A stretch of DNA of 10,294 nucleotides from a virus. The notes under the pieces were generated by a model. That model saw only the letters and a list, made by a program, of their open reading frames with translations. It searched no databases and was not told the DNA's origin. Shown piece by piece: positions 1 to 10,294 of the stretch (positions are counted from its first letter, which is position 1; each line of letters begins with the position of its first letter). The DNA is taken from the UHGV virus genome UHGV-1651392; one strand, given 5' to 3'. Position numbers and translations under genes: made by a program.

Positions 1-48
1 GATCCGAACGTTACAGAAAGAAAAAGCGCCCCGTTGCTAGATAACAGG

Positions 49-78
49 CAAAACAAAGGCGACCGGGATAGGTCGCCA
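49..78 (-). terminator. Putative rho-independent terminator for leftward transcription
   Basis: Perfect 7-bp inverted repeat GGCGACC (59-65) / GGTCGCC (72-78) with a 6-nt loop. On the minus strand it is followed by a T-rich run (complement of 49-58, CTTTGTTTTG). Lies downstream of the leftward genes at 381-560 and 144-323. Confidence 0.35.
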
Positions 79-143
79 GTGGGAACAAAGGAAATCAAAC
101 GCATCGCCAACAATGCCAGATTTGCGGCTGGTGGGCAATGTGA

Positions 144-323
144 TCAGTCAGATTTGGTTCGTTCCAGGGTTTGCAACGAGAGCTTTTTCCTGTGCTCTTT
201 AAGGAATTTCTCAAGAGCAAACGAACAAGGTGCGAATCTTTCTGATTCATGTTCATGCGCTATATTTTTGCGTCGTCTCTTACGAGTTGGTGATGGTGTT
301 TTTGTTGATTCTGTGTCGCTCAT
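144..323 (-). CDS. Hypothetical small basic protein (59 aa), possibly co-transcribed with the upstream RHH gene
   Basis: Hand-translated minus-strand ORF just under the 60-aa track cutoff: MSDTESTKTPSPTRKRRRKNIAHEHESERFAPCSFALEKFLKEHRKKLSLQTLERTKSD. ATG is complement of 321-323, stop is complement of 144-146. Only a weak RBS; sits between the RHH gene and the terminator. Could be spurious. Confidence 0.25.
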   Translation of the reverse strand: MSDTESTKTPSPTRKRRRKNIAHEHESERFAPCSFALEKFLKEHRKKLSLQTLERTKSD

Positions 324-380
324 GGTGCTGCCCTGTAAAGCAATGCGCCTGCGTTCCTCAAACTATGGCGCTGATAGTGG

Positions 381-560
381 CTATTCCTGCTCTTTGGCCT
401 TGCGCCGCTGGCGGCGTTTGATCTCGCCTTCAAGTGCTGAAACGATAAATTGTCCCGTGCTTTCGCCAGCTTCCTTTAAGTTTTCTACAGCGTCGGCTAT
501 TGCGTGGGGAACTCGTGCTTCAAGTTTCTTCGATTTTGCATTAACGGCCTTCGTTGCCAT
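381..560 (-). CDS. Ribbon-helix-helix (CopG/Arc/MetJ-type) DNA-binding regulator, 59 aa; putative repressor of the element
   Basis: Internal ATG (complement of 558-560) of track ORF 381..677 is preceded by a strong RBS (AAGAGGA, complement of about 567-573). Product MATKAVNAKSKKLEARVPHAIADAVENLKEAGESTGQFIVSALEGEIKRRQRRKAKEQE shows the RHH pattern: short beta-strand (LEARVP), helix A, GES turn, helix B, basic tail. The longer track start would add a hydrophobic extension encoded over the operator repeats, so it is rejected. Confidence 0.7.
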   Translation of the reverse strand: MATKAVNAKSKKLEARVPHAIADAVENLKEAGESTGQFIVSALEGEIKRRQRRKAKEQE

Positions 561-580
561 ATCTGGATTCCTCTTTATTA

Positions 581-661
581 GGTGGCTGACAGTATACACA
601 CAAGAAATCGAAAAAACACTATTGACGTGGCTGACACCTGTTACTAATATGGTGGCTGACA
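581..661. promoter_or_regulatory. Candidate operator: three direct repeats of GTGGCTGACA between divergent genes
   Basis: Exact 10-mer GTGGCTGACA at 582-591, 627-636 and 652-661 (first and third extend to GGTGGCTGACA). The second lies in the promoter spacer and the third over the predicted transcription start. Confidence 0.5.
622..650 (+). promoter_or_regulatory. Sigma70-type promoter for the rightward operon (-35 TTGACG, 17-bp spacer, -10 TAATAT)
   Basis: TTGACG at 622-627 and TAATAT at 645-650 with a 17-bp spacer; about 110 bp upstream of the first rightward CDS (761). Confidence 0.5.
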
Positions 662-760
662 CTTTTAGTTGTTGCAAGCAACAAAACGACGAAACCCCGC
701 ACTGTTGGAGCAGTAACGGGGCCTCTAACCACCAACGATAGCGAAAGTATCGAGGTAGCT

Positions 761-964
761 ATGTTAAATCATACCACACACCCGCAAGGGCGGGATTCGC
801 ACAACCTGAATAAATACATCTGGCGTTTTATCGCCCTGAGCACGGCACAACCGCGCGTGATTACCATCGAGGCCACCAGCGAACAGAAAGCCCGTCAGCA
901 ATCCCCGGCTGGCTGCGTGATGGTATTTACTGCTCGCATCCGTCAGGGGGAATACTATGCGTGA
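761..964 (+). CDS. Small hypothetical protein (67 aa), first gene of the rightward early operon
   Basis: Track ORF with GAGG at 752-755 just upstream of the ATG at 761. Its stop overlaps the next start (ATGCGTGA). My unverified recollection is that similar small proteins in P4-like/PICI islands are annotated Icd-like. Confidence 0.55.
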   Translation: MLNHTTHPQGRDSHNLNKYIWRFIALSTAQPRVITIEATSEQKARQQSPAGCVMVFTARIRQGEYYA

Positions 965-1214
965 TGAACGATTTATTCTTCTGGAGCAAAAATTCAGTGA
1001 AGCGCCAAAAAATGAAATTGATGCTCTTTTGCATATCGCGAATATGCTAAAAGTAGCAACGTTCCTTATAGTTTCGAATCTGGAGCATGAAACGGCGTTA
1101 GATATACTGAACAGTGCTGTCGATTATTCTGAATATATTGCCGAGGATAAATACAGGCAATTACCAGATTTGTTAGCCCATAAATATAAAGAAGAACCTC
1201 ACACCGGGAAATAA
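957..1214 (+). CDS. Hypothetical protein (85 aa), noticeably AT-rich gene
   Basis: Track ORF; start overlaps the upstream stop by 8 nt; RBS GGGGGA upstream. Looks clearly AT-richer than its neighbours by eye (not counted). Confidence 0.55.
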   Translation: MRDERFILLEQKFSEAPKNEIDALLHIANMLKVATFLIVSNLEHETALDILNSAVDYSEYIAEDKYRQLPDLLAHKYKEEPHTGK

Positions 1215-1216
1215 AC

Positions 1217-1519
1217 ATGAAGAAGATTAAATTTACTGGCTTAAATGCCAGCGGACAGACTCATCCGAAAATCAGGATCGGGGATATTTTCCGGGATAAA
1301 TATGGTGACAGCGTGGTTATTAATTCCGTGTATGAACGGCACATTACATACCGCCGCGCAGGGTATGACTATGACTGTGTGATGCCCGTTCATCAGTTCC
1401 GGCGTGATTTTTCACTGGTATGTGCAGCACCACGCAGTAAGCCCACCAGTAAAGAGAAAGCACGGGCAAATATTCAGGTAATAAAGAACATGATTAACGC
1501 ATTCAGGGGCAAGAAATGA
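1217..1519 (+). CDS. Hypothetical protein (100 aa)
   Basis: Track ORF starting 2 nt after the previous stop; its stop overlaps the next ATG (ATGA at 1516-1519), suggesting coupling. Confidence 0.55.
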   Translation: MKKIKFTGLNASGQTHPKIRIGDIFRDKYGDSVVINSVYERHITYRRAGYDYDCVMPVHQFRRDFSLVCAAPRSKPTSKEKARANIQVIKNMINAFRGKK

Positions 1520-3642
1520 AACGCGCACCGAATTTAAAGCACCAGCCGAAAGACAAAATGACGGAGGTGATTATCTTTGCGGGTAGTGATGCCTGGGCAC
1601 ATGCGAAAGAGTGGAGCGAATGGGCCGGAAAGCATATTGCGGCAGATGATACACATCCAGTTATTCTTGGACCGGAACAACTGGCGAGTCTGGCAGACAC
1701 GCAAATCATCGACAAAGGGCGCTATTACGTGCGCGTTTATCGTGCTGGTGAAATATCAGAGCAGCACCTTACACAGATAGCGACACTGCTTGCAGTGGCG
1801 GGTGTGAAGGAGGCGCGTTGCTACCGCAGCTTTGTTGATCAGCAGCCGGAGGACTGGACACCGCGCATGACTGGACTGAAGGATGATGCGGAACGCGGTA
1901 ACAGTCTGGTGATCAACCTTCCGGCGAAGACAAATTTCACCGGAAATTATGATGACGAATTAAAGCCTCGTGTTGAAAGTCGCGTCGATGGTGTTTTCTG
2001 GGTAACGCCCAAAGTGGACAAGCAGTCAGGCGAAATTATCCGGCCTGAGACGTGGTTATGTTCTCCGCTTGAACTACTGGGAACAGGAACAATCGGCAAA
2101 GAGCATTACCGCGTGATGCGCTGGAAAAAACCAGCAAACCATGAGGTCATTACAATGGCGGTCCCGTGCGGAGGCATTGGTGACCGTGACGGCTGGCGGT
2201 TGCTGAAAGACCACGGCCTTAACGTGACGACCAACGGCAAATACAGGGCTATCCTGGCTGACTGGATGCAGTTAAGCGGAAACCATGAGGAATGGCAGTT
2301 AAGCACAACAACGGGGTGGCATTTTGGTGCGTACATCATGCCGGATGGTTCGATCATCGGTGAATCAGAGAAACCCATCCTGTTTACCGGAAAAACTGCC
2401 GCTGTTAATGGCTATTCCGTGGCGGGAACAGCGGAGGGCTGGCGCGATACCGTGGCACGGCTGGCTGGTGGTAATCCGTCCATGATGCTGGGTGTGGCGG
2501 TATCGCTATCTGCACCATTAATCGGGCTGGTGGGTGCTGACGGCTTCGGGGTTCATCTTTTTGAGCAATCATCAGCAGGTAAAACCACCACACAGAACAT
2601 TGCCTCAAGTTTATGGGGAGAGCCGGACGCGCAACGGCTGACCTGGTACGGAACGGCGTTAGGTATCGCCAACGAGGCCGAAGCACATAATGACGGGCTG
2701 TTACCCCTGGATGAAATAGGCCAGGCCGGAAACGCACGGGAGGTGTCCACGTCAGCCTATACGCTGTTTAACGGTTCCGGGAAATTACAGGGGGCGAAGG
2801 ACGGCGGCAACAGGGAGATAAAACACTGGCGTACGGTGGCAATCAGCACCGGAGAAATGGACGTTGAAACATTCCTCAAAACGGAAGGGATAAAAATTAA
2901 AGCGGGGCAGCTTGTCCGTCTGCTTAACGTACCGATGGAAAAGGCCTCGCAGTTTCACGAATACAGCACCGGAAAGGCGCACGCAGACGCGTTAAAAAAT
3001 GCCTGGACAGAAAATCACGGGGCGGCAGGTCGTGAGTGGGTTAAATGGCTGGCAGGTCACCAGCAGGAGGCAAAGGACGCGGTAAAGGCATGTCGCGAGC
3101 GGTGGCGCAACCTGATACCGGAGAGCTACGGCGAGCAGGTTCACCGTGTGGGGGAAAGATTCGCCGTACTGGAGGCCGCGCTTGTGCTTTCCGGTCATGT
3201 TACAGGCTGGGATGTTCAGGCGTGCCGTGATGCAGTTCAGCATAACTTTAATGCCTGGGTGAAGGAATTCGGCACGGGCAACAGGGAATTTAAACAGATG
3301 GTTGAACAGGCTGAGGCGTTTTTGTCGTCGTTCGGGTTCAGTCGATACCTTCCCTATCCAAACAGCGACGAGCGTGATTTACCGATTAAAGACCTTGCCG
3401 GATACAGAAAGGGGAGCATCAGAAACGAAGATGAGGAGTTCCGTTTTTACACGTTCCCGCATGTGTTTGAGGGTGAGATAGCACAGGGATTTAATCCGTC
3501 TCACTTTGCCCGCGCGTTGAGTGCTGCCGGAATGCTGGAAGCGGGAGGCGACCGCCGTTACAAGAAAAAGGCGCTCGGCAGGATTGGCGGGAAGCAGCAT
3601 ATTTTTTACGTGCTGATGTTCCAGCCTGAAGCAGAATATTAA
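1516..3642 (+). CDS. Replication protein: P-loop NTPase of the DUF927-like primase/helicase type (708 aa)
   Basis: Long ORF with coupled start. Walker A-like motif SSAGKTTT (about 2566-2592) and Walker B-like hhhhDE motif LLPLDEIGQ (about 2698-2724). Directly followed by an iteron cluster, as expected for a Rep/initiator gene. Confidence 0.8.
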   Translation: MKRAPNLKHQPKDKMTEVIIFAGSDAWAHAKEWSEWAGKHIAADDTHPVILGPEQLASLADTQIIDKGRYYVRVYRAGEISEQHLTQIATLLAVAGVKEARCYRSFVDQQPEDWTPRMTGLKDDAERGNSLVINLPAKTNFTGNYDDELKPRVESRVDGVFWVTPKVDKQSGEIIRPETWLCSPLELLGTGTIGKEHYRVMRWKKPANHEVITMAVPCGGIGDRDGWRLLKDHGLNVTTNGKYRAILADWMQLSGNHEEWQLSTTTGWHFGAYIMPDGSIIGESEKPILFTGKTAAVNGYSVAGTAEGWRDTVARLAGGNPSMMLGVAVSLSAPLIGLVGADGFGVHLFEQSSAGKTTTQNIASSLWGEPDAQRLTWYGTALGIANEAEAHNDGLLPLDEIGQAGNAREVSTSAYTLFNGSGKLQGAKDGGNREIKHWRTVAISTGEMDVETFLKTEGIKIKAGQLVRLLNVPMEKASQFHEYSTGKAHADALKNAWTENHGAAGREWVKWLAGHQQEAKDAVKACRERWRNLIPESYGEQVHRVGERFAVLEAALVLSGHVTGWDVQACRDAVQHNFNAWVKEFGTGNREFKQMVEQAEAFLSSFGFSRYLPYPNSDERDLPIKDLAGYRKGSIRNEDEEFRFYTFPHVFEGEIAQGFNPSHFARALSAAGMLEAGGDRRYKKKALGRIGGKQHIFYVLMFQPEAEY

Positions 3643-3665
3643 CTTCCCTGTGTGAGGTAAAAAGT

Positions 3666-3790
3666 TGCGGGTTATGCGGGTTATCCTGTGTATAAGTTAA
3701 TTAAATGCATGATTAAAAAGGAAATCAATAACCCGCACGTAACCCGCAAAACGGCAGTTATAACCCGCAAATGTGCGATTGTAACCCGCA
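3666..3790. repeat. Iteron cluster, putative replication origin (or Rep/regulator binding array)
   Basis: 9-mer TAACCCGCA direct copies at 3729-3737, 3740-3748, 3761-3769 and 3782-3790 (spacings 11, 21, 21 bp). Two tandem inverted copies TGCGGGTTA at 3666-3674 and 3675-3683. They flank an AT-rich core at 3684-3728. Confidence 0.55.
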
Positions 3791-3852
3791 AAATTTCACT
3801 GTAAGAGTGTAAACAAGCGTAACTATCACGTTAAAACCGGAGAACAAACAGC

Positions 3853-4278
3853 ATGACGGCGCAAATATCAGCTTACGGGCGGCTGGTGGCTGACCCGCAG
3901 TTAAAGACCACCAGCAAGGGCACACAAATGGCGATGGCGAGTATGGCGGTCCCCCTTCCATGCAATCAGGCAGATGACGGAACGGCGACGATGTGGTTAT
4001 CCGTCCTGGCGTTTGGCAGACAGGCTGACGCACTGGCAAAACACCACAAAGGCGAACTGGTGAGCGTGGCCGGTAACATGCAGGTGAGCCGGTGGACGGG
4101 CCAGAACGGCGAAACGAGGCAGGGATGGCAGGTTATCGCAGACAGCGTAATCAGTGCGCGAACGGCGCGACCGGGCGGCAAAAAAGGCCAGCAGGGGCAG
4201 GCTACTGATGCACTGAACAGGGCAAAGCAACAGACAGGCCAGCACGATGATCCGTACGGGGACGGGATACCGTTTTAA
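3853..4278 (+). CDS. ssb: Single-stranded DNA-binding protein (141 aa)
   Basis: RBS GGAGAA at 3839-3844. OB-fold-like core with conserved aromatic positions, a Gly/Gln-rich linker and an acidic C-terminal tail ending DDPYGDGIPF (compare E. coli SSB DDDIPF). Confidence 0.85.
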   Translation: MTAQISAYGRLVADPQLKTTSKGTQMAMASMAVPLPCNQADDGTATMWLSVLAFGRQADALAKHHKGELVSVAGNMQVSRWTGQNGETRQGWQVIADSVISARTARPGGKKGQQGQATDALNRAKQQTGQHDDPYGDGIPF

Positions 4279-4314
4279 TTCACAACAGCGAACAGAGTAA
4301 TTACAGGGGAAGGC

Positions 4315-4812
4315 ATGACAAAGCTGACCATAAACAGAAAACCGAAGGGCATTTACGGCACGCCGCAGAAAACAGCACAGGCGGCGCAGCAGCAGAATAA
4401 AACCACATCGGCGCATAAAGTGATGCCAGATAACCAGAACACACAGCAGAAGCTCACAGGAGCAACACCGCGGCGGCGTATGACCAAACAGCAGCGTAAA
4501 AACCGCAGACGCGTTAACCGTCTTATTGAGCTATGGCCTGAATTATTCAGCCCGGAATCACCTAAGCCGCTTAAGGTGGGGATATTTGACGACCTGATAC
4601 AGGATATTGCCGCGAGAGGTATTTCACTCGGACAGGGAACACTACGCGCAACGCTGGCGCGTTATGTGCAGACTCCGCGCTATTACCGCGCCCTGGTAGC
4701 TGGTGGCGCGCGTTACGACCTGAAAGGCCAGCCGTGCGGCGAGGTAACACCACTACAACAGACGCACGCAGGAAAACTACTGGAGGAGATGAATGGAAAT
4801 AGAAAGAAATGA
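4315..4812 (+). CDS. ProQ/FinO-family RNA-binding protein (165 aa)
   Basis: RBS AGGGGA at about 4303-4308. Segment [27 protein letters not shown]...[35 protein letters not shown] closely parallels the ProQ N-terminal FinO domain (PLKIGIF.DL ... LR.AL..Y..S.RY ... R.DL.G.PCGE). Confidence 0.85.
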
Positions 4813-5209
4813 TCACGCACATGGTCGCCGTGCAGGTGATCACATTGTGGATGAAATTGCGAAAAAACAAAGAGTTGACATTGTTGTCAGTGTCACAGTC
4901 GAGAGCGCGAAGCGCCAAAATAAGCGTATAAATGATCATTCAGATGTACATGGTGTGATCACTCGTTTACGCCAGACTTTTGTAACTCGTGAAGAGATGA
5001 TTGAAGCTATTGACCAGCATACAGCATGTATCAGCGTCAGGGATATACCGGAGATCATTGCTAACTACTTCATGATCACCAGACGCCTTTACCGGAGAAA
5101 AGACAAGAGCACGGTTAACCGTCTCCTGATGTCTGATATTCGCGAATACCTGCAAGAAAGAGGCTATGTGAATCCACCAGAACAGCACTACGGAAAAGTC
5201 GGAGGCTAA
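4793..5209 (+). CDS. Hypothetical protein (138 aa), overlapping the 3' end of the ProQ/FinO gene
   Basis: Track ORF; ATG at 4793 preceded by GGAGGA at 4782-4787 (5-nt spacer); overlaps the upstream gene by 20 nt. No recognisable motifs. Confidence 0.6.
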
Positions 5210-5293
5210 CTAAAACCCTGTACCGAAGAGCGGCGGCGCGATGGGGTGAAGTAATGCAGTTGGGGTACTGACAAGGAACGGTATTGCATATCA

Positions 5294-5443
5294 ATGCGAC
5301 GACTGGAATGTTCCAGGAAGGCACAGAGGCCACCGAAGCAACCGGATAATTTAGAAGACCTGAAACGGTCGCTTAAACGCACTGAAAAAGAAATGGGGAT
5401 AGATGGGATCGGGAAATCAGTATGGCGTAACTACCAGAAGTAA
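5294..5443 (+). CDS. Possible small basic protein (49 aa); alternatively part of a small RNA
   Basis: Hand-translated: MRRLECSRKAQRPPKQPDNLEDLKRSLKRTEKEMGIDGIGKSVWRNYQK. Stop TAA at 5441-5443 lies 6 nt before a strong terminator. No convincing RBS (AAGGAA is 15 nt upstream). Confidence 0.25.
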   Translation: MRRLECSRKAQRPPKQPDNLEDLKRSLKRTEKEMGIDGIGKSVWRNYQK

Positions 5444-5449
5444 GCACAG

Positions 5450-5473
5450 AGCCGGAGCAATCCGGCTTTTTTT
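5450..5473 (+). terminator. Rho-independent terminator
   Basis: Perfect 7-bp stem AGCCGGA (5450-5456) / TCCGGCT (5461-5467) with GCAA loop, followed by a run of seven T ending at 5473. Confidence 0.65.
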
Positions 5474-5575
5474 GGGGCTGAAATCAATCAATCTGTTTTT
5501 GTGATAGAAATATGTTTATCTACCACTTTTTCAGATCAATAATGTGCATAGTTTAGTCAGTAAGAGGAAATTGCT

Positions 5576-5782
5576 GTGAATTGTATTAACGACCTGAACA
5601 CAGGCGATGTCAGAGGTGGTTCCGTTCATCTGGATGCACAGACCGTGATGCGCCTTAAGCAGTACAGAATCGACCATGTGAACAATCACCCTGATCAGCC
5701 ATTACCAGGCGTGGCGCAGATTGTCAGACATGCCGTAAACGCCTGGCTTAATCAGAATGGTTTTGCATCGGGGGGTGAGTAA
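5576..5782 (+). CDS. Small protein (68 aa), GTG start; possible ribbon-helix-helix-like regulator
   Basis: GTG at 5576 preceded by a strong RBS AAGAGGAAA (5562-5570). Pattern SVHLDAQTVMRLKQY ... GVAQIVRHAVNAWLNQNG is compatible with a strand-helix-helix fold (weak). Stop overlaps a short downstream reading frame. Confidence 0.5.
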   Translation: MNCINDLNTGDVRGGSVHLDAQTVMRLKQYRIDHVNNHPDQPLPGVAQIVRHAVNAWLNQNGFASGGE

Positions 5783-5878
5783 TGAATCGCTGGTACAGCA
5801 TCAAAGCGGAGGGACGCCAATGTTATTTAAATCAGGTTTTATGAATTCTGGTACACGATTCAAAACAGGGGGTTACTG

Positions 5879-8410
5879 ATGCCAGTCGTACCAACAGTAT
5901 CCGGACGCCAGGTTGAGAGCCGTGGAGTTCAGTCAGCAGGCTTGCAGACGTTTTCTCAGCCAGATATTGGTGATGCTTTTGTTCGGGCAGGGACAGAGGC
6001 AATTGATGTTCTTGGTCAGGCAAAACAGCGCGCCAATATTGCCTTGGTTCAGGAGGCATCCCTTAAACTCAGTCAGACAGGCAGTGATCTGCTGAATAAT
6101 CCTGAAACAGGATTGCTTAACTTGAAAGGGAAAAATGCTATTGGAAAAGGCCATGAGTATACACAGCAGTTTGATGCTCAGATCGAACAACTGGCTATGT
6201 CGCTGCCGGATGAACAGGCTCGTAATGCTTTCATGCAGCAGGCGCAGCAGCAGCGTATTCAGTTCGCTACGCAGGCCGGGAGGTACGAGATAGGGCAAAT
6301 AAATGCCTACGAAGAAGGCCAGTTTCAGGCGACACTGCTGAATAATGGTAAAAATGCCTCAGCATTATATGGCGACAACGCAGCATACATATTGGCTAAT
6401 ACGCAAACTTTCCAGCAAATTGAGGATTACGGTATTGCGCATGGCTGGAGCGACGAGCAAATCCAGGCCAAGAAAATCGAGTTTAAAGAAGCAACAGCAA
6501 AAGCAACTGCTCAAAATGCTATTGGAGCAAACTATCTTCAGGTAAGACAGCAAAATGGCGAGTTAAGCGATACTGCTGCTGGATCTCGCCGTGCTGTAGC
6601 AGATAGTGGCTCTTCCGATCGTACCCGCGGTATACGCAACAATAACCCCGGCAATCTTGAATACAGCAAAACTAATCCGTGGGTTGGGCAGACTGGTGAT
6701 GATGGTCGCTTTGCCAAATTCGAAACCCCTGAACACGGTATTCGCGCGCTTGGTCGCAATTTGCTGTCGTATCAGCGTCAGGGTTATGACACCATCAGCG
6801 AAATAATTAATCGCTGGGCACCGGCCAGTGATGATAATAAAACTGATGCTTATATACGGGCAGTATGTGCTCAGCTCGGTGTAACTCCTGACCAGCCGCT
6901 TGACGCATCAAATCCTGACACACTGAAATCTCTGTGCAAAGCAATTATTCATCATGAGCAAGGCAGTCAGCCGTACAGTGATCAGCAATTGGCCGCTGGC
7001 GTTAGTGCCGCACTGGGGCTTTCTCAGCTACCGACAAAAAATAAACGTTATACCGGTGTAGCCTGGTTCGATGCTTTAAGTGAATCAGATCAGGCCAGCG
7101 TGTTGCGACAGACGGATGCATTAGCCAGACAGCAGCAGGCTGAATATAGAACGATGCTCGAAAGCCGGGTTCGCGATGCAACGGCTGCGTATATGCGTGG
7201 CGTTGAATTTCCTAACCCGCCTGGTGAGGGTGAGTTCATTGCTGCTTATGGTGTCAGAGAAGGAAACCTGCGATATACCGAGTTCAGAAATTTGCAGATC
7301 GCCGGACAGTATATAGGCTCTTTCCGCAACATGCCGACAAGCAGCATTACCGCATATGTTGAGCAATTACGCCCGGATACTGGTGAGACAGGGGAGGGGT
7401 ATGCGTCTCGTGCGGAGTTATTCGACCGGGTATCGGCGGCAGCCACGAAGGTAATAACCCAGAGGCAGAATAATCCGTTTAGTGCAGCGGTGGAAATCGG
7501 AGCCTATAAGCCGATCACCAGCAACAACCCTGACGACATCACTGCCGAGGTGGCTAACCGTTTCTCGTCGCAGGAAAGCTTACGCGCGTTGGGAATTAAT
7601 GCCCCACTCCTCAACAGTGAAGAGGCGGCTGCGCTGGCACAGCAGGTGCGCGGCACTCAGAACGTTGACCAGACAATTAAACTGTTGCAGAGCATGGGGG
7701 AGAAGCTGCCTGCGCCAGCAATACGGCAGGTGGCATCTGTAATTGCTCCGAACAGTGCGGCAACAGCCTATTCTGCGCTGCTGCTGGGCACGCCGGATAA
7801 CCAGTACGACAACACCAGGCCGACGATCCCATATAGTCAGTTCATCGGGTATAAGCCGACGATGAACAAGTACGACGTTGCAAAGGTTATTCTTTCCGGC
7901 GACCAACTACTGAATCCGACGAAGGCCATGAAGAATGCGGGCATAACTCCGGTACAGTTGCCGAGCGAAGATAAGATGAAAGACGCTTTCGACGAACAGG
8001 TAGGTAATGCATTTGCCCGTAACCCGCAGTTACGCCAGATCAGTTATAGCCTTTTCAAAGCCGCTTACGCAGGAATAGCTTATCAATCTGGTGATGCCTC
8101 TACGGTAAGAACCAGTATGCCTGATACAGACATTGTAGCTGATGCCGTGAAGTATGCTACTGGCGGTATATACAATGGTTTTAATGGCGGCGACGTTGTA
8201 ATGCCTTTTGGCATGGATAAATCTACTTTCAAAGATCGCTATACCACATCTGCGAAACAAGCACTGAAAGATGCCGGACTTAACGTAAATGCAGTGTCAA
8301 ATTTCACGCCAGTTAATATCGGCAATAACCGGTATCGGCTTGTAAATGGTAGCGGACGCTGGGCAACAGATCCCAGAACCAATAAAGCTATTGTCGTGAG
8401 GGTTGAATAA
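5879..8410 (+). CDS. Large protein of unknown function (843 aa); possibly a virion/cell-envelope-associated or effector-type protein
   Basis: Long ORF with RBS AGGGGG (5866-5871). Gln/Ala-rich, probably helical N-terminal third. Central segment with conserved-looking motif RTRGIRNNNPGNLEYSKTNPWVGQTGDDGRFAKFETPEHGIRALGRNLL. Stop overlaps the next ATG (TAATG at 8408-8412). Function not assignable from sequence alone. Confidence 0.8.
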   Translation: MPVVPTVSGRQVESRGVQSAGLQTFSQPDIGDAFVRAGTEAIDVLGQAKQRANIALVQEASLKLSQTGSDLLNNPETGLLNLKGKNAIGKGHEYTQQFDAQIEQLAMSLPDEQARNAFMQQAQQQRIQFATQAGRYEIGQINAYEEGQFQATLLNNGKNASALYGDNAAYILANTQTFQQIEDYGIAHGWSDEQIQAKKIEFKEATAKATAQNAIGANYLQVRQQNGELSDTAAGSRRAVADSGSSDRTRGIRNNNPGNLEYSKTNPWVGQTGDDGRFAKFETPEHGIRALGRNLLSYQRQGYDTISEIINRWAPASDDNKTDAYIRAVCAQLGVTPDQPLDASNPDTLKSLCKAIIHHEQGSQPYSDQQLAAGVSAALGLSQLPTKNKRYTGVAWFDALSESDQASVLRQTDALARQQQAEYRTMLESRVRDATAAYMRGVEFPNPPGEGEFIAAYGVREGNLRYTEFRNLQIAGQYIGSFRNMPTSSITAYVEQLRPDTGETGEGYASRAELFDRVSAAATKVITQRQNNPFSAAVEIGAYKPITSNNPDDITAEVANRFSSQESLRALGINAPLLNSEEAAALAQQVRGTQNVDQTIKLLQSMGEKLPAPAIRQVASVIAPNSAATAYSALLLGTPDNQYDNTRPTIPYSQFIGYKPTMNKYDVAKVILSGDQLLNPTKAMKNAGITPVQLPSEDKMKDAFDEQVGNAFARNPQLRQISYSLFKAAYAGIAYQSGDASTVRTSMPDTDIVADAVKYATGGIYNGFNGGDVVMPFGMDKSTFKDRYTTSAKQALKDAGLNVNAVSNFTPVNIGNNRYRLVNGSGRWATDPRTNKAIVVRVE

Positions 8411-10245
8411 TGTCTGATGTTTTTTCTTTGGCTCCAGAAGGTCAGGCATGGATTGACGACAAAACAGTTGCCAACCCAGCAAGGCCAGAAGACTACGATC
8501 CGACTCCCTTCCAGGGTTCAGGTACTGCACTTTTGAGCGGCGTGGCGGAGGGGGCTCTCGGTCTCGCGCAGTCTGCCGTCGGATTCAGCAAGCGCCTGAT
8601 TAGCGATCCGGCATTTACCGCAGACGTGGCACCGACAGTTAATATTTTTCGGGAGATGTTCCCTGATGCTGACAAAACACTGAATGATACATACGACACG
8701 ATCGGAAAACAGTTACAGGATGCCCGCAGCTATGTGAAGCCTGATGCAGGCAGCCAGGGAATGGCGGCTGAGGTATTAAATGAGGTTGGTAAATTTGTTC
8801 CTGCAATCGGAACAACTATGTTTGGTGGTCCGCTCATCGGCGCTGCTACAGCCTTCAGTTCTACGTATGAGCAGTCCTATCAGGATTTTAAAGGGAAGGG
8901 AGTAGACGAGGCTACAGCGCGTAACCTGGCAACGCAGCAGAGCCTTTTCAATGCTGTGGGTATGGCCTTACCCGCTGCCGTCGGCACCACACTGGCAACG
9001 CGCATTGCCTCAGGTGTGGCAATCAACACCGGATTCGGTGGACTGAACCGTTACTCAGTAGGCGCAACACTGGAGGAAAAAGGCTACACGGAGATGGCAA
9101 AACAGTACCGGGTATTTGACGGTCAGGCGATGTTAGTCGATGCCGTTTTAGGCGGGGTCTTTGGTGGCGTTCATCACCTGACTACCCATAATAACCATGA
9201 TGGTACAGAGTCGAACATTTCTGCAGAAGAAATAAAATCAACTTTTGGTGAACATTATCAGCAATCTCCTGATGGTAACATTGAGTCAATGGTTCGTGAT
9301 TTATCTGATTCAGGAGTAATAGAACTTATTAATGAACCAGCAATAAAAAATAGTGATGGAGAAATACTTCTGAATAAAGGTCATGTGACAGTAGCTTCCG
9401 GAAAAGAACCAATAATAAGAATAAATATTAATGGATTAAAAGACCATGAAGAACTGTTAGAAACCCTTCATCACGAGGCGCTTCATCTTGAGCAGCGCCA
9501 TTACCCTGACTGGAAGGCCAGAAAGCTAGCTAATGCTGTACTTAAATCTGCAAACAAGCATTCTGACTATCCTGAATTTGCATATGGGATGTCACAATAT
9601 TATGAATATAAGAAAAGGGGTGAGTACCCTGAAACATATCCTGAGTGGTTGTACGCTGAAGAAGTTGCCGCACATGCAGTAAATCCATCTCTAAAGACAA
9701 GCGTTTCATCATGGGAAAAAATTATTTCAGGTTTTAAAGCCTATATATTCAGATACAGTGGTATTCAGGTTGGAACCGTTACACCTGAGCAGTTACGGTT
9801 ACTCGTAAGTATGCGTCTTCGCAATATGAAACTGGAAGCCGCAGTAGAAAAAGTTTTTGGTATCCGGGCGAGGGAAAGAATAAAACCAAGCGATATTGAT
9901 GCAGCCCACATTTTGAATGAGGGGCTTCATTACGATATTGAATCGTCACCAGTGCTTCATACCAGCAATGAGAGCATCAACAGCCATGTTGACGCCATGG
10001 ATGAAGCATACAGGCAACTTAATGATGGTCAGCCTGTAAATGTTGGGGGGATGGCGCGAGGGCTTGATGGTCCATTGCGATCAGATATATCTGATACTTA
10101 CCAAGAGCAATACCATGAAATACAAAAGGTTTTTGAAGAAAATGGTGTCAGATACGAAACATCATCAGAGCCAATTAGTGAATCGCCTGTCCCTCGTGAA
10201 CCGCCCCGGGAATCCTGGAGACTAAACTTCCTGAGAAAGAGGTAA
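8410..10245 (+). CDS. Modular protein (611 aa as read): GC-rich Gly/Ala-rich hydrophobic N-terminal trunk plus AT-rich C-terminal domain with HExxH motif; 3' end fused to and truncated by an IS element
   Basis: Coupled start with RBS GAGGG (8398-8402). N-terminal 257 aa contain repeated small-residue hydrophobic segments (for example GTTMFGGPLIGAATAF, ALPAAVGTTLATRIASGVAINTGFGG, VLGGVFGGV). Sampled 60-nt blocks fall from 57-68% GC to 28-35% GC at about 9180. HEALH motif at 9472-9486. The last 16 codons (from 10197) are IS-derived, so the native C-terminus is missing or altered. Confidence 0.75.
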   Translation: MSDVFSLAPEGQAWIDDKTVANPARPEDYDPTPFQGSGTALLSGVAEGALGLAQSAVGFSKRLISDPAFTADVAPTVNIFREMFPDADKTLNDTYDTIGKQLQDARSYVKPDAGSQGMAAEVLNEVGKFVPAIGTTMFGGPLIGAATAFSSTYEQSYQDFKGKGVDEATARNLATQQSLFNAVGMALPAAVGTTLATRIASGVAINTGFGGLNRYSVGATLEEKGYTEMAKQYRVFDGQAMLVDAVLGGVFGGVHHLTTHNNHDGTESNISAEEIKSTFGEHYQQSPDGNIESMVRDLSDSGVIELINEPAIKNSDGEILLNKGHVTVASGKEPIIRININGLKDHEELLETLHHEALHLEQRHYPDWKARKLANAVLKSANKHSDYPEFAYGMSQYYEYKKRGEYPETYPEWLYAEEVAAHAVNPSLKTSVSSWEKIISGFKAYIFRYSGIQVGTVTPEQLRLLVSMRLRNMKLEAAVEKVFGIRARERIKPSDIDAAHILNEGLHYDIESSPVLHTSNESINSHVDAMDEAYRQLNDGQPVNVGGMARGLDGPLRSDISDTYQEQYHEIQKVFEENGVRYETSSEPISESPVPREPPRESWRLNFLRKR

Positions 10246-10294
10246 ACAGGATGACTAAAAATACTCGTTTTTCCCCCGAAGTCCGTCAACGGGC
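10197..10294 (+). mobile_element. Left end of an IS3-family insertion sequence (IS629/IS1203-like), continuing beyond the window
   Basis: Sequence TGAACCGCCCCGGGAATCCTGGAGACTAAACTTCCTGAGAAAGAGGTAAACAGG followed by ATG ... MTKNTRFSPEVRQR matches my recollection of the IS629-type left inverted repeat and OrfA start. The exact boundary (10196/10197) is from memory and needs confirmation. Confidence 0.6.
10251..10294 (+). CDS. IS3-family transposase OrfA, N-terminal fragment (partial at window edge)
   Basis: ATG at 10251 with RBS GAGG (about 10240-10243); translation MTKNTRFSPEVRQR(A) is characteristic of IS3-family OrfA helix-turn-helix proteins. Confidence 0.7.
   Translation, partial: MTKNTRFSPEVRQR

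What the first reader, a model, noticed from the sequence alone, without database searches (positions are those of the whole stretch)
3666..3790. Helically phased iteron array flanking an AT-rich core directly downstream of the Rep gene: likely origin of replication
Four direct TAACCCGCA copies at 11- and 21-bp spacings (same DNA face) and two tandem inverted copies bracket a 45-bp AT-rich stretch (3684-3728). The arrangement lies between the P-loop Rep gene and ssb, the classic rep-ori organisation of phage-inducible islands and many plasmids. The array could alternatively be an operator controlling ssb.
Basis: seen in the sequence. Interest (0 to 1): 0.6.

Follow-up and report, generated by a model that had tools for sequence, protein, structure and literature searches.

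The report
Satellite-island replication origin with Rep iterons
The repeats are real and are most likely the binding sites that let a phage-satellite island of E. coli start copying its own DNA, a layout already described for this kind of island, so the finding is correct but ordinary.

Summary
Six exact TAACCCGCA copies lie within 125 bp: two inverted copies 9 bp apart, a 45-bp core that is 76% AT, then four direct copies spaced 11, 21 and 21 bp. The array starts 24 nt after the stop codon of a 708-aa DUF927 helicase that is homologous to the SaPI Rep and to SCCmec Cch.

The window is a PICI-like island at the E. coli yicC-dinD attachment site. The same layout follows the rep gene in 74 of 85 loci compared across Enterobacterales, but with 15 different repeat sequences.

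The repeat sequence tracks the last ~100 residues of Rep. It does not track ssb or the upstream DUF4222 gene. One natural variant keeps 83% DNA identity on both sides and replaces only window 3322-3830, which holds the Rep C-terminus and the array.

[quoted passage not shown] It was tested functionally for EcCICFT073, which has a different Rep family.

Verdict: this is a Rep-cognate origin of replication and a new member of a known kind. The ssb-operator alternative is not supported for this window. No experiment was possible, and the structure models were too poor to use.

The parts
1217..1519 (+). DUF4222 gene. It overlaps the rep start (ATGA) and is conserved upstream of unrelated replicases in these islands.
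   Evidence: Pfam DUF4222, E 3.8e-18. Its identity to relatives does not follow iteron class: 34-68% in same-iteron loci and 51-65% in loci with a different iteron.
1516..3642 (+). rep: a 708-aa DUF927 AAA+ helicase-initiator with Walker A SSAGKTT at residues 352-358.
   Evidence: Pfam DUF927, E 1.1e-46. PDB 8tch 'Pathogenicity island protein', E 1.1e-14 over residues 214-603, and 5dgk Cch. PHROG 1139 'DNA primase', matching profile positions 139-892 of 895. Longer homologues carry an added Zn-ribbon and Toprim at the N-terminus.
3322..3639 (+). Coding region for the Rep C-terminal ~106 residues (603-708), the inferred iteron-specificity domain.
   Evidence: Residues 661-700 give the largest within-class versus between-class identity gap, 0.80 vs 0.40, and the gap holds when pairs are matched for core identity. 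DNA similarity to L087 is lost exactly over 3322-3830. There is a weak match to the Pfam HTH_56 'Cch helix turn helix' domain at residues 633-703: E 0.022 for the window and down to 2.9e-5 in 6 of 26 relatives.
3666..3683 (-). Left iteron set: two abutting TAACCCGCA copies (3666-3674 and 3675-3683) pointing away from the AT-rich core.
   Evidence: A pair or triplet at 9-bp spacing, 21-31 nt after the rep stop in most loci, recurs across the family.
3684..3728 (.). AT-rich core (75.6% A+T), the inferred site of initial melting.
   Evidence: The equivalent gap is 45-68 bp and 63-89% A+T across nearly all loci that have an inverted left set.
3687..3695 (-). Match to the DnaA-box consensus TTATNCACA (TGTGTATAA on the + strand) at the left edge of the core. 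Its role is uncertain.
   Evidence: Present in all five TAACCCGCA-class loci although the flanks diverge (TGTGTATAA or TGTGGATAA). Absent at this position in the other iteron classes.
3729..3790 (+). Right iteron set: four TAACCCGCA copies (3729, 3740, 3761, 3782) spaced 11, 21 and 21 bp.
   Evidence: The 11/21/21 or 11/21 spacing recurs in most family members whatever the repeat sequence. Within the same-iteron group, 48 of 54 iteron columns are invariant against 54 of 104 other columns, Fisher p = 3e-6.
3831..3852 (+). Conserved ssb leader and ribosome-binding region (CGTTAAAACCGGAGA...). It belongs to the ssb module, not to the origin.
   Evidence: DNA similarity to L087 resumes at 3831. 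The same motif precedes ssb in L086 and L088, where it lies inside an upstream small ORF.
3853..4278 (+). ssb: a 141-aa single-strand DNA-binding protein with an E. coli-like C-terminal tip (...DGIPF). It is the likely partner that coats the melted origin.
   Evidence: Pfam SSB, E 2.4e-16. Translation.

Best explanation
The array is the replication origin, or at least its core module, of a phage-inducible chromosomal island (PICI-type satellite) integrated between yicC and dinD.

Inferred mechanism, by homology with SaPI Rep proteins: after the island is induced, the 708-aa Rep is made. A C-terminal winged-helix-like domain (about residues 603-708) recognises the RTAACCCGCA iterons on both sides of the AT-rich core. 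Rep oligomers assemble on the two oppositely oriented sets, melt the 45-bp core and load themselves as the replicative helicase. The island's own SSB, encoded next door, coats the single strands and connects to the host replisome through its IPF tip.

Shown here: the repeats, their layout, their conservation, their co-variation with the Rep C-terminus, and the homology of Rep to SaPI Rep and Cch. Inferred: binding, melting, self-loading and replication.
For: (1) The repeats are real and non-random.

(2) Rep is a DUF927 protein homologous to the SaPI Rep structure 8tch (E 1e-14) and to Cch 5dgk.

[quoted passage not shown] It was tested functionally for EcCICFT073 pri-rep-ori (PMC6092414). In SaPIs the Rep C-terminal winged helix binds 6-12 iterons just downstream of rep, with at least 2 iterons per side in opposite directions (PMC9371898). 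The window meets each of these points.

(4) Of 85 loci (the window, L002-L005 and 80 Rep-homologue loci across Enterobacterales), 78 have an array of 4 or more copies just after rep. In 74 the order is the same: an inverted set, a 45-90 bp gap, then phased direct copies. There are 15 different iteron sequences.

(5) Iteron class tracks Rep residues about 661-700 (within-class identity 0.80, between-class 0.40). At equal core identity, same-class pairs keep 0.64-0.94 C-terminal identity and different-class pairs 0.38-0.68.

(6) A natural swap exists. L087 shares 83% DNA identity over window 1229-3321 and 82% over 3831-4774, but has no detectable similarity over 3322-3830. Its Rep is 79% identical overall and 26% in the last 50 residues. 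Its iteron is TGGGACAAG in the same layout, and its SSB is 90% identical.

(7) Islands with a homologous ssb but a D5-like primase or a RepA-type helicase carry other repeats after their replicase: GGTAGAYA and AAGTGAGG. One of these is the validated EcCICFT073 origin, in the same synteny.

(8) The O157:H7 island L003 lies inside the element listed as 'same as EDL933'. It has a Rep 82% identical and the same iteron. EcCIEDL933 is reported to replicate after helper induction.

(9) Iteron positions are under stronger constraint than the spacers.
Against: There is no direct evidence of binding or replication for this element.

The window carries only the left module (6 copies). About half of the relatives, including the O157:H7 islands with the same iteron, have a second, roughly mirror-image module, giving 9-13 copies in all. 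A six-copy array could therefore be a weakened origin, although 32 loci from several iteron classes share this short form.

The window Rep lacks the Zn-ribbon segment that the 900-940-aa homologues have, so priming must come from somewhere else.

The assignment of the C-terminal fold is weak. HTH_56 scores E 0.022, below Pfam's cut-off. The AlphaFold models had mean pLDDT of 46 and 49. A profile of the C-terminus found nothing in the PDB.
Confidence: 0.85

Rival explanations
1. The array is an operator. The repeats are bound by Rep or another regulator mainly to control transcription of ssb and the downstream genes, with no role in initiation.
For: The array lies upstream of ssb. In relatives with a second module, three tandem copies 8-9 bp apart abut a promoter-like TATATATA...GAGGTG leader of the next ORF, so some regulatory use of these iterons is plausible in those elements.
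Against: The window lacks that tandem triplet. No sigma-70-like promoter is predicted on the + strand and no terminator is predicted between rep and ssb, so ssb is probably co-transcribed with rep. In L003 and L005 the same array is separated from ssb by more than 200 bp and a small ORF. The ssb gene occurs in 1366 genomes but this intergenic region in only 252. The repeats change with the Rep C-terminus while ssb stays 85-90% identical.
Confidence: 0.05
2. The array is a remnant half-origin. Rep still binds, but without the second module the array can no longer fire, so this island cannot replicate on its own.
For: O157:H7-type islands with the same iteron carry 10-12 copies in two modules, against 6 here. 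The island also shows signs of decay elsewhere: a frameshifted PerC gene, a BRO-N pseudogene and an IS3-family insertion.
Against: The one-module form occurs in 32 loci spanning several iteron classes and genera. All six copies are exact, and they are conserved in L002 and L004 although the spacers have diverged. The rep ORF is intact, and its 90%-identity protein cluster has 290 member sequences. [quoted passage not shown]
Confidence: 0.08
3. The feature is a nucleic-acid structure. The inverted and direct copies form a long hairpin in the rep-ssb transcript or in single-stranded DNA, and this acts as a processing, attenuation or packaging signal.
For: The single strand folds at -33.6 kcal/mol, z = -5.1 against shuffles, with 3666-3683 paired to 3729-3748.
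Against: A hairpin needs only complementary partners. Here all six copies, including 3761 and 3782, which pair with no other iteron copy in that fold, share one sequence, and this holds in all 15 classes. That pattern is what a repeated protein-recognition site looks like. There is no Rfam match and no T-run terminator. The fold energy follows automatically from having inverted repeats.
Confidence: 0.02

Closest known systems
EcCICFT073 pri-rep-ori (E. coli PICI; Fillol-Salom et al. 2018, PMC6092414)
   Same: The gene order is the same: int, HTH, Icd-like, DUF4222, replicase, iteron/AT-rich origin, (small ORF), ssb, PerC. The origin lies directly 3' of the replicase. It begins with two tandem inverted iterons 9 bp apart soon after the stop codon, followed by an AT-rich stretch and further iterons. 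The rep-ori fragment was shown to drive plasmid maintenance.
   Different: The EcCICFT073 replicase is a D5_N/DUF5906 primase-helicase, as judged from its near-identical Nissle counterpart, not a DUF927 protein. Its iteron is GGTAGAYA with 11 copies, and it sits at a different att site.
SaPI origins and Rep (SaPI1, SaPIbov1, SaPI5; PMC9371898)
   Same: Rep is homologous (8tch, E 1e-14). The origin lies immediately downstream of rep. Short iterons flank a central AT-rich region, with at least two per side in opposite orientation. Specificity lies in the C-terminal domain (compared).
   Different: SaPI iterons are penta- or hexanucleotides, whereas these are 9-10 nt with fixed 9 and 11/21/21 spacing. 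The host is Gram-negative and the island is transcribed in one direction. The C-terminal domain shows only a marginal sequence match to the Cch HTH domain.
EcCIEDL933-type capsid-forming PICI of E. coli O157:H7 (bioRxiv 10.1101/2022.09.08.507074)
   Same: Rep is 82% identical, the iteron is the same TAACCCGCA, and the left module is the same. L003 lies within the island listed as 'same as EDL933'. That element replicates after helper induction.
   Different: It has a second iteron module (11 copies), a small ORF before ssb, and its own capsid and terminase genes. The window island instead carries homologues of epsilon15-like virion proteins. I found no description of the origin in that paper.
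SCCmec Cch helicase (PDB 5dgk; DUF927)
   Same: The same Pfam family and an MCM-like AAA+ core. The C-terminal HTH_56 domain is weakly matched.
   Different: To my own knowledge, no iteron origin has been defined next to cch. Sequence similarity is low (E 7.5e-4).
Satellite phage P4 alpha protein with ori/crr (own knowledge; mentioned in PMC6092414)
   Same: A single polypeptide combines initiator, helicase and primase-type modules and recognises short (8-bp) repeated sites through its C-terminal part. The element is a satellite with Icd-like and AlpA-like genes.
   Different: P4 alpha belongs to the D5-like SF3 family. P4 uses two separated cis sites (ori and crr) rather than one array directly after the gene. 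Not tested here.
Iteron plasmids (pSC101, F, P1, R6K, RK2; own knowledge)
   Same: Repeated initiator-binding sites lie next to an AT-rich unwinding region. A DnaA-box consensus is present in this iteron class.
   Different: Plasmid iterons are 17-22 bp direct repeats bound by a small Rep_3/WH1-WH2 initiator that has no helicase, and the helicase (DnaB) is supplied by the host. Here the initiator is itself the helicase, and the 9-bp repeats occur in opposed sets.

Membership tests
PICI-type replication origin (SaPI / Gram-negative EcCI ori) | Located immediately 3' of the replication initiator (rep or pri-rep) gene | tested here: met
   The first iteron starts 24 nt after the rep stop codon.
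PICI-type replication origin (SaPI / Gram-negative EcCI ori) | Two sets of iterons flank an AT-rich region, with at least two on each side in opposite orientation | tested here: met
   Two copies on the - strand, a 45-bp core of 75.6% A+T, then four copies on the + strand.
PICI-type replication origin (SaPI / Gram-negative EcCI ori) | The adjacent initiator is a SaPI-Rep-like self-loading AAA+ helicase | tested here: met
   DUF927, E 1e-46. PDB 8tch, E 1e-14. 5dgk, E 7.5e-4. Walker A and B motifs are present.
PICI-type replication origin (SaPI / Gram-negative EcCI ori) | Iteron sequence is matched to the Rep allele, with specificity in the Rep C-terminal domain | tested here: met
   Fifteen iteron classes co-vary with Rep residues about 661-700. 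A natural cassette swap covers window 3322-3830. This is comparative evidence, not a binding assay.
PICI-type replication origin (SaPI / Gram-negative EcCI ori) | The Rep C-terminal domain is a winged-helix DNA-binding fold | tested here: inconclusive
   HTH_56 scores E 0.022 for the window, below the cut-off, and reaches 2.9e-5 in relatives. The models have pLDDT 46-49. The fold search is not significant. The profile search against the PDB found nothing.
PICI-type replication origin (SaPI / Gram-negative EcCI ori) | The rep-ori fragment supports Rep-dependent autonomous replication, and Rep binds and melts the origin | not testable with these tools
   This needs cloning, EMSA and footprinting. 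It has been done for EcCICFT073 and for SaPIs only.
PICI-type replication origin (SaPI / Gram-negative EcCI ori) | The host element is a PICI: an integrase at a dedicated att site, an AlpA-type regulator, unidirectional genes, about 10-18 kb, and no full set of phage genes | tested here: met
   L001 shows int, a 72-aa HTH protein, antirepressor, Icd-like, rep, ssb and PerC, all rightward, between yicC and dinD. yicC-dinD is listed as a PICI att site. Helper-phage induction was not tested.
Iteron-plasmid origin (Rep_3-type initiator) | 17-22 bp direct iterons bound by a small non-helicase Rep, with the host helicase recruited by DnaA/DnaC | tested here: not met
   The repeats are 9-10 nt and occur in opposed sets. 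The initiator is a 708-aa helicase. A DnaA-box consensus exists only in this iteron class.
Transcriptional operator of ssb | Sites overlap a promoter of the regulated gene and stay associated with that gene | tested here: not met
   No promoter is predicted on the + strand. The array separates from ssb in L003 and L005 and is replaced in front of a conserved ssb in L086-L088.

The most novel reading that the evidence does not exclude
The full origin of this Rep family may be a mirror-symmetric, two-module device: a tandem set, an AT core and a phased set, followed by the same in reverse. The window's single module plus a conserved DnaA box would then be a distinct working variant, for example one-sided loading or host-DnaA-assisted firing, rather than a plain copy of the SaPI plan. 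Separately, the Rep C-terminus and the array form one exchangeable cassette with at least 15 specificities on a fixed scaffold. That could give a readable protein-DNA recognition code for self-loading MCM-like helicases, and a means by which co-resident satellites avoid incompatibility.
Probability: 0.15. Interest if true: 0.5.

Novelty: new member of a known kind. Interest (0 to 1): 0.3.

Why it matters
It fixes the origin and the probable specificity determinant of a widespread DUF927-Rep lineage of enterobacterial phage satellites. This intergenic array occurs in 252 of 5426 complete E. coli genomes, and homologues are found across Enterobacterales.

In practice it gives a small rep-ori cassette and a panel of about 15 presumably orthogonal Rep/iteron pairs. 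These could be tested as compatible replicons or used to probe how MCM-like self-loading helicases read DNA.

Conceptually it adds little. The organisation was already described for Gram-positive and Gram-negative PICIs.

Tried and rejected
Structure. The AlphaFold2 model of full-length Rep (11-sequence alignment) had mean pLDDT 45.6, and only residues ~10-130 were confident. The model of the C-terminal 140 residues (19 sequences) had pLDDT 48.7. I use none of these as evidence.

A profile of the C-terminal domain searched against PDB sequences found nothing relevant.

A full-text search for the iteron string returned only primers and unrelated sequences. I could not see Fig. 2a of PMC6092414, so I cannot say whether this exact iteron was already drawn there. 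Its supplements do not contain it.

Rfam gave no match in 3400-4000.

The promoter scan found one weak hit on the - strand (3805 to 3778), which is no more than the shuffles give and is not conserved in L003 or L005, so I dismissed it.

DUF4222 or SSB as the iteron-binding protein: rejected, because neither co-varies with iteron class.

DnaA box as a family feature: rejected, because it is confined to the TAACCCGCA class.

Membership of the iteron-plasmid family: rejected on repeat length, repeat orientation and initiator type.

Full report
**1. What is in the sequence.**
The region 3666-3790 holds six exact copies of TAACCCGCA. Two lie on the minus strand and abut each other (3666-3674 and 3675-3683). 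Four lie on the plus strand at 3729, 3740, 3761 and 3782, spaced 11, 21 and 21 bp. Allowing one mismatch, the whole window has 9 matches against 2.4 expected, and none of 200 shuffles reaches that number. Between the two sets lies a 45-bp stretch (3684-3728) that is 75.6% A+T. The array begins 24 nt after the stop codon of a 708-aa ORF (1516-3642) and ends 62 nt before ssb (3853-4278).

**2. Context.**
Window positions 1-10198 are 99.98% identical to part of the E. coli MS 196-1 chromosome. There it lies in an island of about 18 kb between yicC and dinD. The island carries a tyrosine integrase, a small HTH regulator, an antirepressor, an Icd-like protein, DUF4222, a DUF927 protein, SSB, ProQ/FinO, PerC (frameshifted) and several large ORFs (three of 0.7-0.9 kaa plus a small one), all transcribed rightward. 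yicC-dinD is listed as a PICI attachment site in the supplement of Fillol-Salom et al. 2018.

The 708-aa protein matches several references:
- Pfam DUF927, E 1.1e-46.
- The solved SaPI Rep-type 'Pathogenicity island protein' 8tch, E 1.1e-14 over residues 214-603, and the SCCmec helicase Cch 5dgk.
- PHROG 1139 'DNA primase'.

It has Walker A (SSAGKTT) and Walker B (LLPLDE) motifs. Homologues of 900-940 aa carry an extra N-terminal primase Zn-ribbon and a Toprim domain. The window protein is the short form.

**3. Comparison with the literature.**
[quoted passage not shown] For SaPIs, a winged helix in the Rep C-terminal domain binds 6-12 iterons placed just after rep. An AT-rich centre is flanked by at least two iterons per side pointing in opposite directions, and Rep loads itself as the helicase (PMC9371898). 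The window array fits every sequence-level criterion.

I fetched EcCICFT073 itself. It has the same gene order: DUF4222, replicase, iterons, small ORF, ssb, PerC. Its replicase is a 'DNA primase family protein' with the same length and gene order as, and a near-identical accession to, the Nissle protein that scores as D5_N/DUF5906. Its iteron is GGTAGAYA, present in 11 copies. The window therefore represents a different Rep allele at the same position as the validated origin.

**4. Family-wide test.**
A search of one genome per species returned 80 loci encoding Rep homologues, 51-82% identical, across Enterobacterales. I added the window and four diverged E. coli copies. Results:
- 78 of the 85 loci have a repeated 7-10-mer array directly after rep.
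- 74 show the same order: two or three inverted copies 9 bp apart, beginning 21-31 nt after the stop codon in most loci; a gap of 45-68 bp (63-89% A+T) in nearly all; then direct copies spaced 11, 21 (and 21).
- The repeat sequence differs between lineages, with 15 classes. Examples are TAACCCGCA, TAACCCAC, TAACCCGT, TGAACCAAC, TGAACCGA, TGAACCACG, GAGACAAC, GGGACAA, TGGGATAAG, TGGTACAAC, TGACACACT and TGACCCGAC.

A constant scaffold with concerted change of every copy is what sites read by a co-evolving protein look like. Within the TAACCCGCA group, 48 of 54 iteron columns are invariant against 54 of 104 other columns (p = 3e-6).

**5. Which protein do the repeats follow?**
Sliding comparison of Rep alignments shows that residues about 661-700 separate same-iteron pairs from different-iteron pairs far better than any other segment (0.80 vs 0.40 identity). 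The separation persists in every bin of matched core identity. Class-specific motifs are visible. For example, KKKAL..GGKQHxFYV goes with TAACCC-type iterons, QRKS-PRI-DGRQINVYV goes with TGAACCAAC, and a PRLKH insertion goes with the GGGACAA, GAGACAAC (part of the class), TGGGATAAG and TGGTACAAC classes.

The clearest case is L087 (E. coli LH13-b):
- DNA identity to the window is 83% over 1229-3321 and 82% over 3831-4774, with no detectable similarity over 3322-3830.
- Its Rep is 79% identical overall but 26% in the last 50 residues.
- Its iteron is TGGGACAAG in the same layout.
- Its SSB is 90% identical.

DUF4222 and SSB identities do not follow iteron class. Islands with a homologous ssb but a D5-like or RepA-type replicase have still other repeats after that replicase. 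In O157:H7 islands the same array sits next to rep and is separated from ssb by more sequence and a small ORF. The ssb gene is found in 1366 complete E. coli genomes, but this intergenic region in only 252. The array therefore belongs to rep, and specifically to its C-terminal ~100 residues, not to ssb.

**6. Mechanism.**
- Shown: the homology of Rep to self-loading SaPI helicases, the iteron layout, and the co-variation with the C-terminus.
- Inferred: Rep binds both iteron sets through a C-terminal winged-helix-like domain, melts the AT-rich core and loads itself. The island SSB, which ends in ...DGIPF like the host SSB, stabilises the bubble and links to host replication proteins. Because the short Rep lacks the Zn-ribbon primase segment, priming probably depends on the host or on the helper phage.

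The fold of the C-terminal domain could not be established. The match to Pfam's Cch HTH domain is marginal (window E 0.022; best relative 2.9e-5; 6 of 26 relatives). Both structure models were of low confidence.

**7. Differences from relatives.**
About half of the loci (42) have 9-13 copies, made up of the module seen here plus a second, roughly mirror-image module. That module has one direct and two or three inverted copies at about 21-22 bp, another AT-rich gap, and then two or three tandem direct copies 8-9 bp apart just before the next ORF. The O157:H7 islands with the same iteron are of this type. The Xuzhou21 copy lies inside the element listed as 'same as EDL933', and EcCIEDL933 is reported to replicate after induction.

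The window and 31 other loci from several iteron classes have only the first module. This could mean a simpler but working origin or a weakened one. The breadth of the short form and the exactness of all six copies favour the former.

A DnaA-box consensus (TGTGTATAA, 3687-3695) is conserved within the TAACCCGCA class only. Its significance is open.

**8. Rivals.**
- An ssb operator is disfavoured by section 5 and by the absence of a predicted promoter or terminator.
- A hairpin signal does not explain why the copies that pair with no other iteron copy keep the same sequence in all classes. No Rfam family matches.
- A dead remnant remains possible at low probability.

**9. Verdict.**
This is a PICI-type, Rep-cognate iteron origin, a new member of a known kind. 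I found no paper describing this iteron or the origin of DUF927-Rep E. coli islands, but I could not inspect the origin figure of PMC6092414. Interest is modest. The useful additions are the conserved scaffold, the 15 specificities, and the mapped cassette formed by the Rep C-terminus and the iteron array.

Noticed in passing
window 4810-4961 (5' part of ORF 4793-5209): Four TGATCA (Dam-site) hexamers are arranged 2 + 2 (4810 and 4837; 4933 and 4956) at the ends of a ~150-bp stretch. The stretch is 82-85% identical to the 'Pac1'/terminase (pacA) region of P1-like phages and phage-plasmids. The ORF matches a terminase PHROG over its residues 5-68. This looks like a P1-type pac site carried by the island, which would suggest packaging by P1-like helpers.
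   Followed up: partly
window 5879-8410 and 8410-10245 (L001 16480-23827 has three such ORFs): The large ORFs are homologous (74-92% DNA identity) to internal virion or ejection proteins of epsilon15/phiV10-type podoviruses, one of them annotated there as a putative lytic transglycosylase. No capsid or terminase genes are present. This resembles EcCIMP1, whose helper is the epsilon15-like phage Kapi1.
   Followed up: partly
window 10199-10294: The window departs from the MS 196-1 sequence at 10198/10199 and continues into an IS3-family element end (about 95% identical to IS3-family transposase regions on plasmids). The insertion interrupts the second large ORF.
   Followed up: partly
window 3687-3695: A DnaA-box consensus (TTATACACA on the - strand) lies at the left edge of the AT-rich core. 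It is kept in all five TAACCCGCA-class loci, as TGTGTATAA or TGTGGATAA, although the flanks diverge. It is absent at this position in the other iteron classes.
   Followed up: partly
window 8020-8028; also 3891-3899 and 7213-7221: One further exact TAACCCGCA lies inside the 843-aa ORF; about 0.08 exact copies are expected per window by chance. Two one-mismatch copies also exist, one of them inside ssb. These are probably chance matches.
   Followed up: no
L003 3680-3735 and L005 3680-3735 (O157:H7-type relatives): In the second origin module, a direct and an inverted iteron 22 bp apart form a hairpin followed by TTTT (GTAACCCGCAGAAAAAACCCCGTTTGCGGGTTATTTT). The iteron pair may therefore double as an intrinsic terminator after rep. 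The three tandem copies further on abut a TATATATA...GAGGTG leader of the next ORF, which looks like an operator.
   Followed up: no
window 1516-1960 (Rep residues 1-150): The N-terminal ~150 residues of Rep are the most variable part among same-iteron relatives (20-82% identity per 50-column block). They model with fair confidence as an alpha/beta, possibly Toprim-like, domain. The 900-940-aa homologues have a Zn-ribbon and Toprim here, so the short form may have lost primase activity.
   Followed up: partly
window 34-741 (+) and 381-677 (-): The 235-aa + strand ORF has no family match. It overlaps the annotated minus-strand YlcI/YnfO gene (L001 10982-11161) in a stretch of strongly negative AT skew. 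It is probably not a gene.
   Followed up: no
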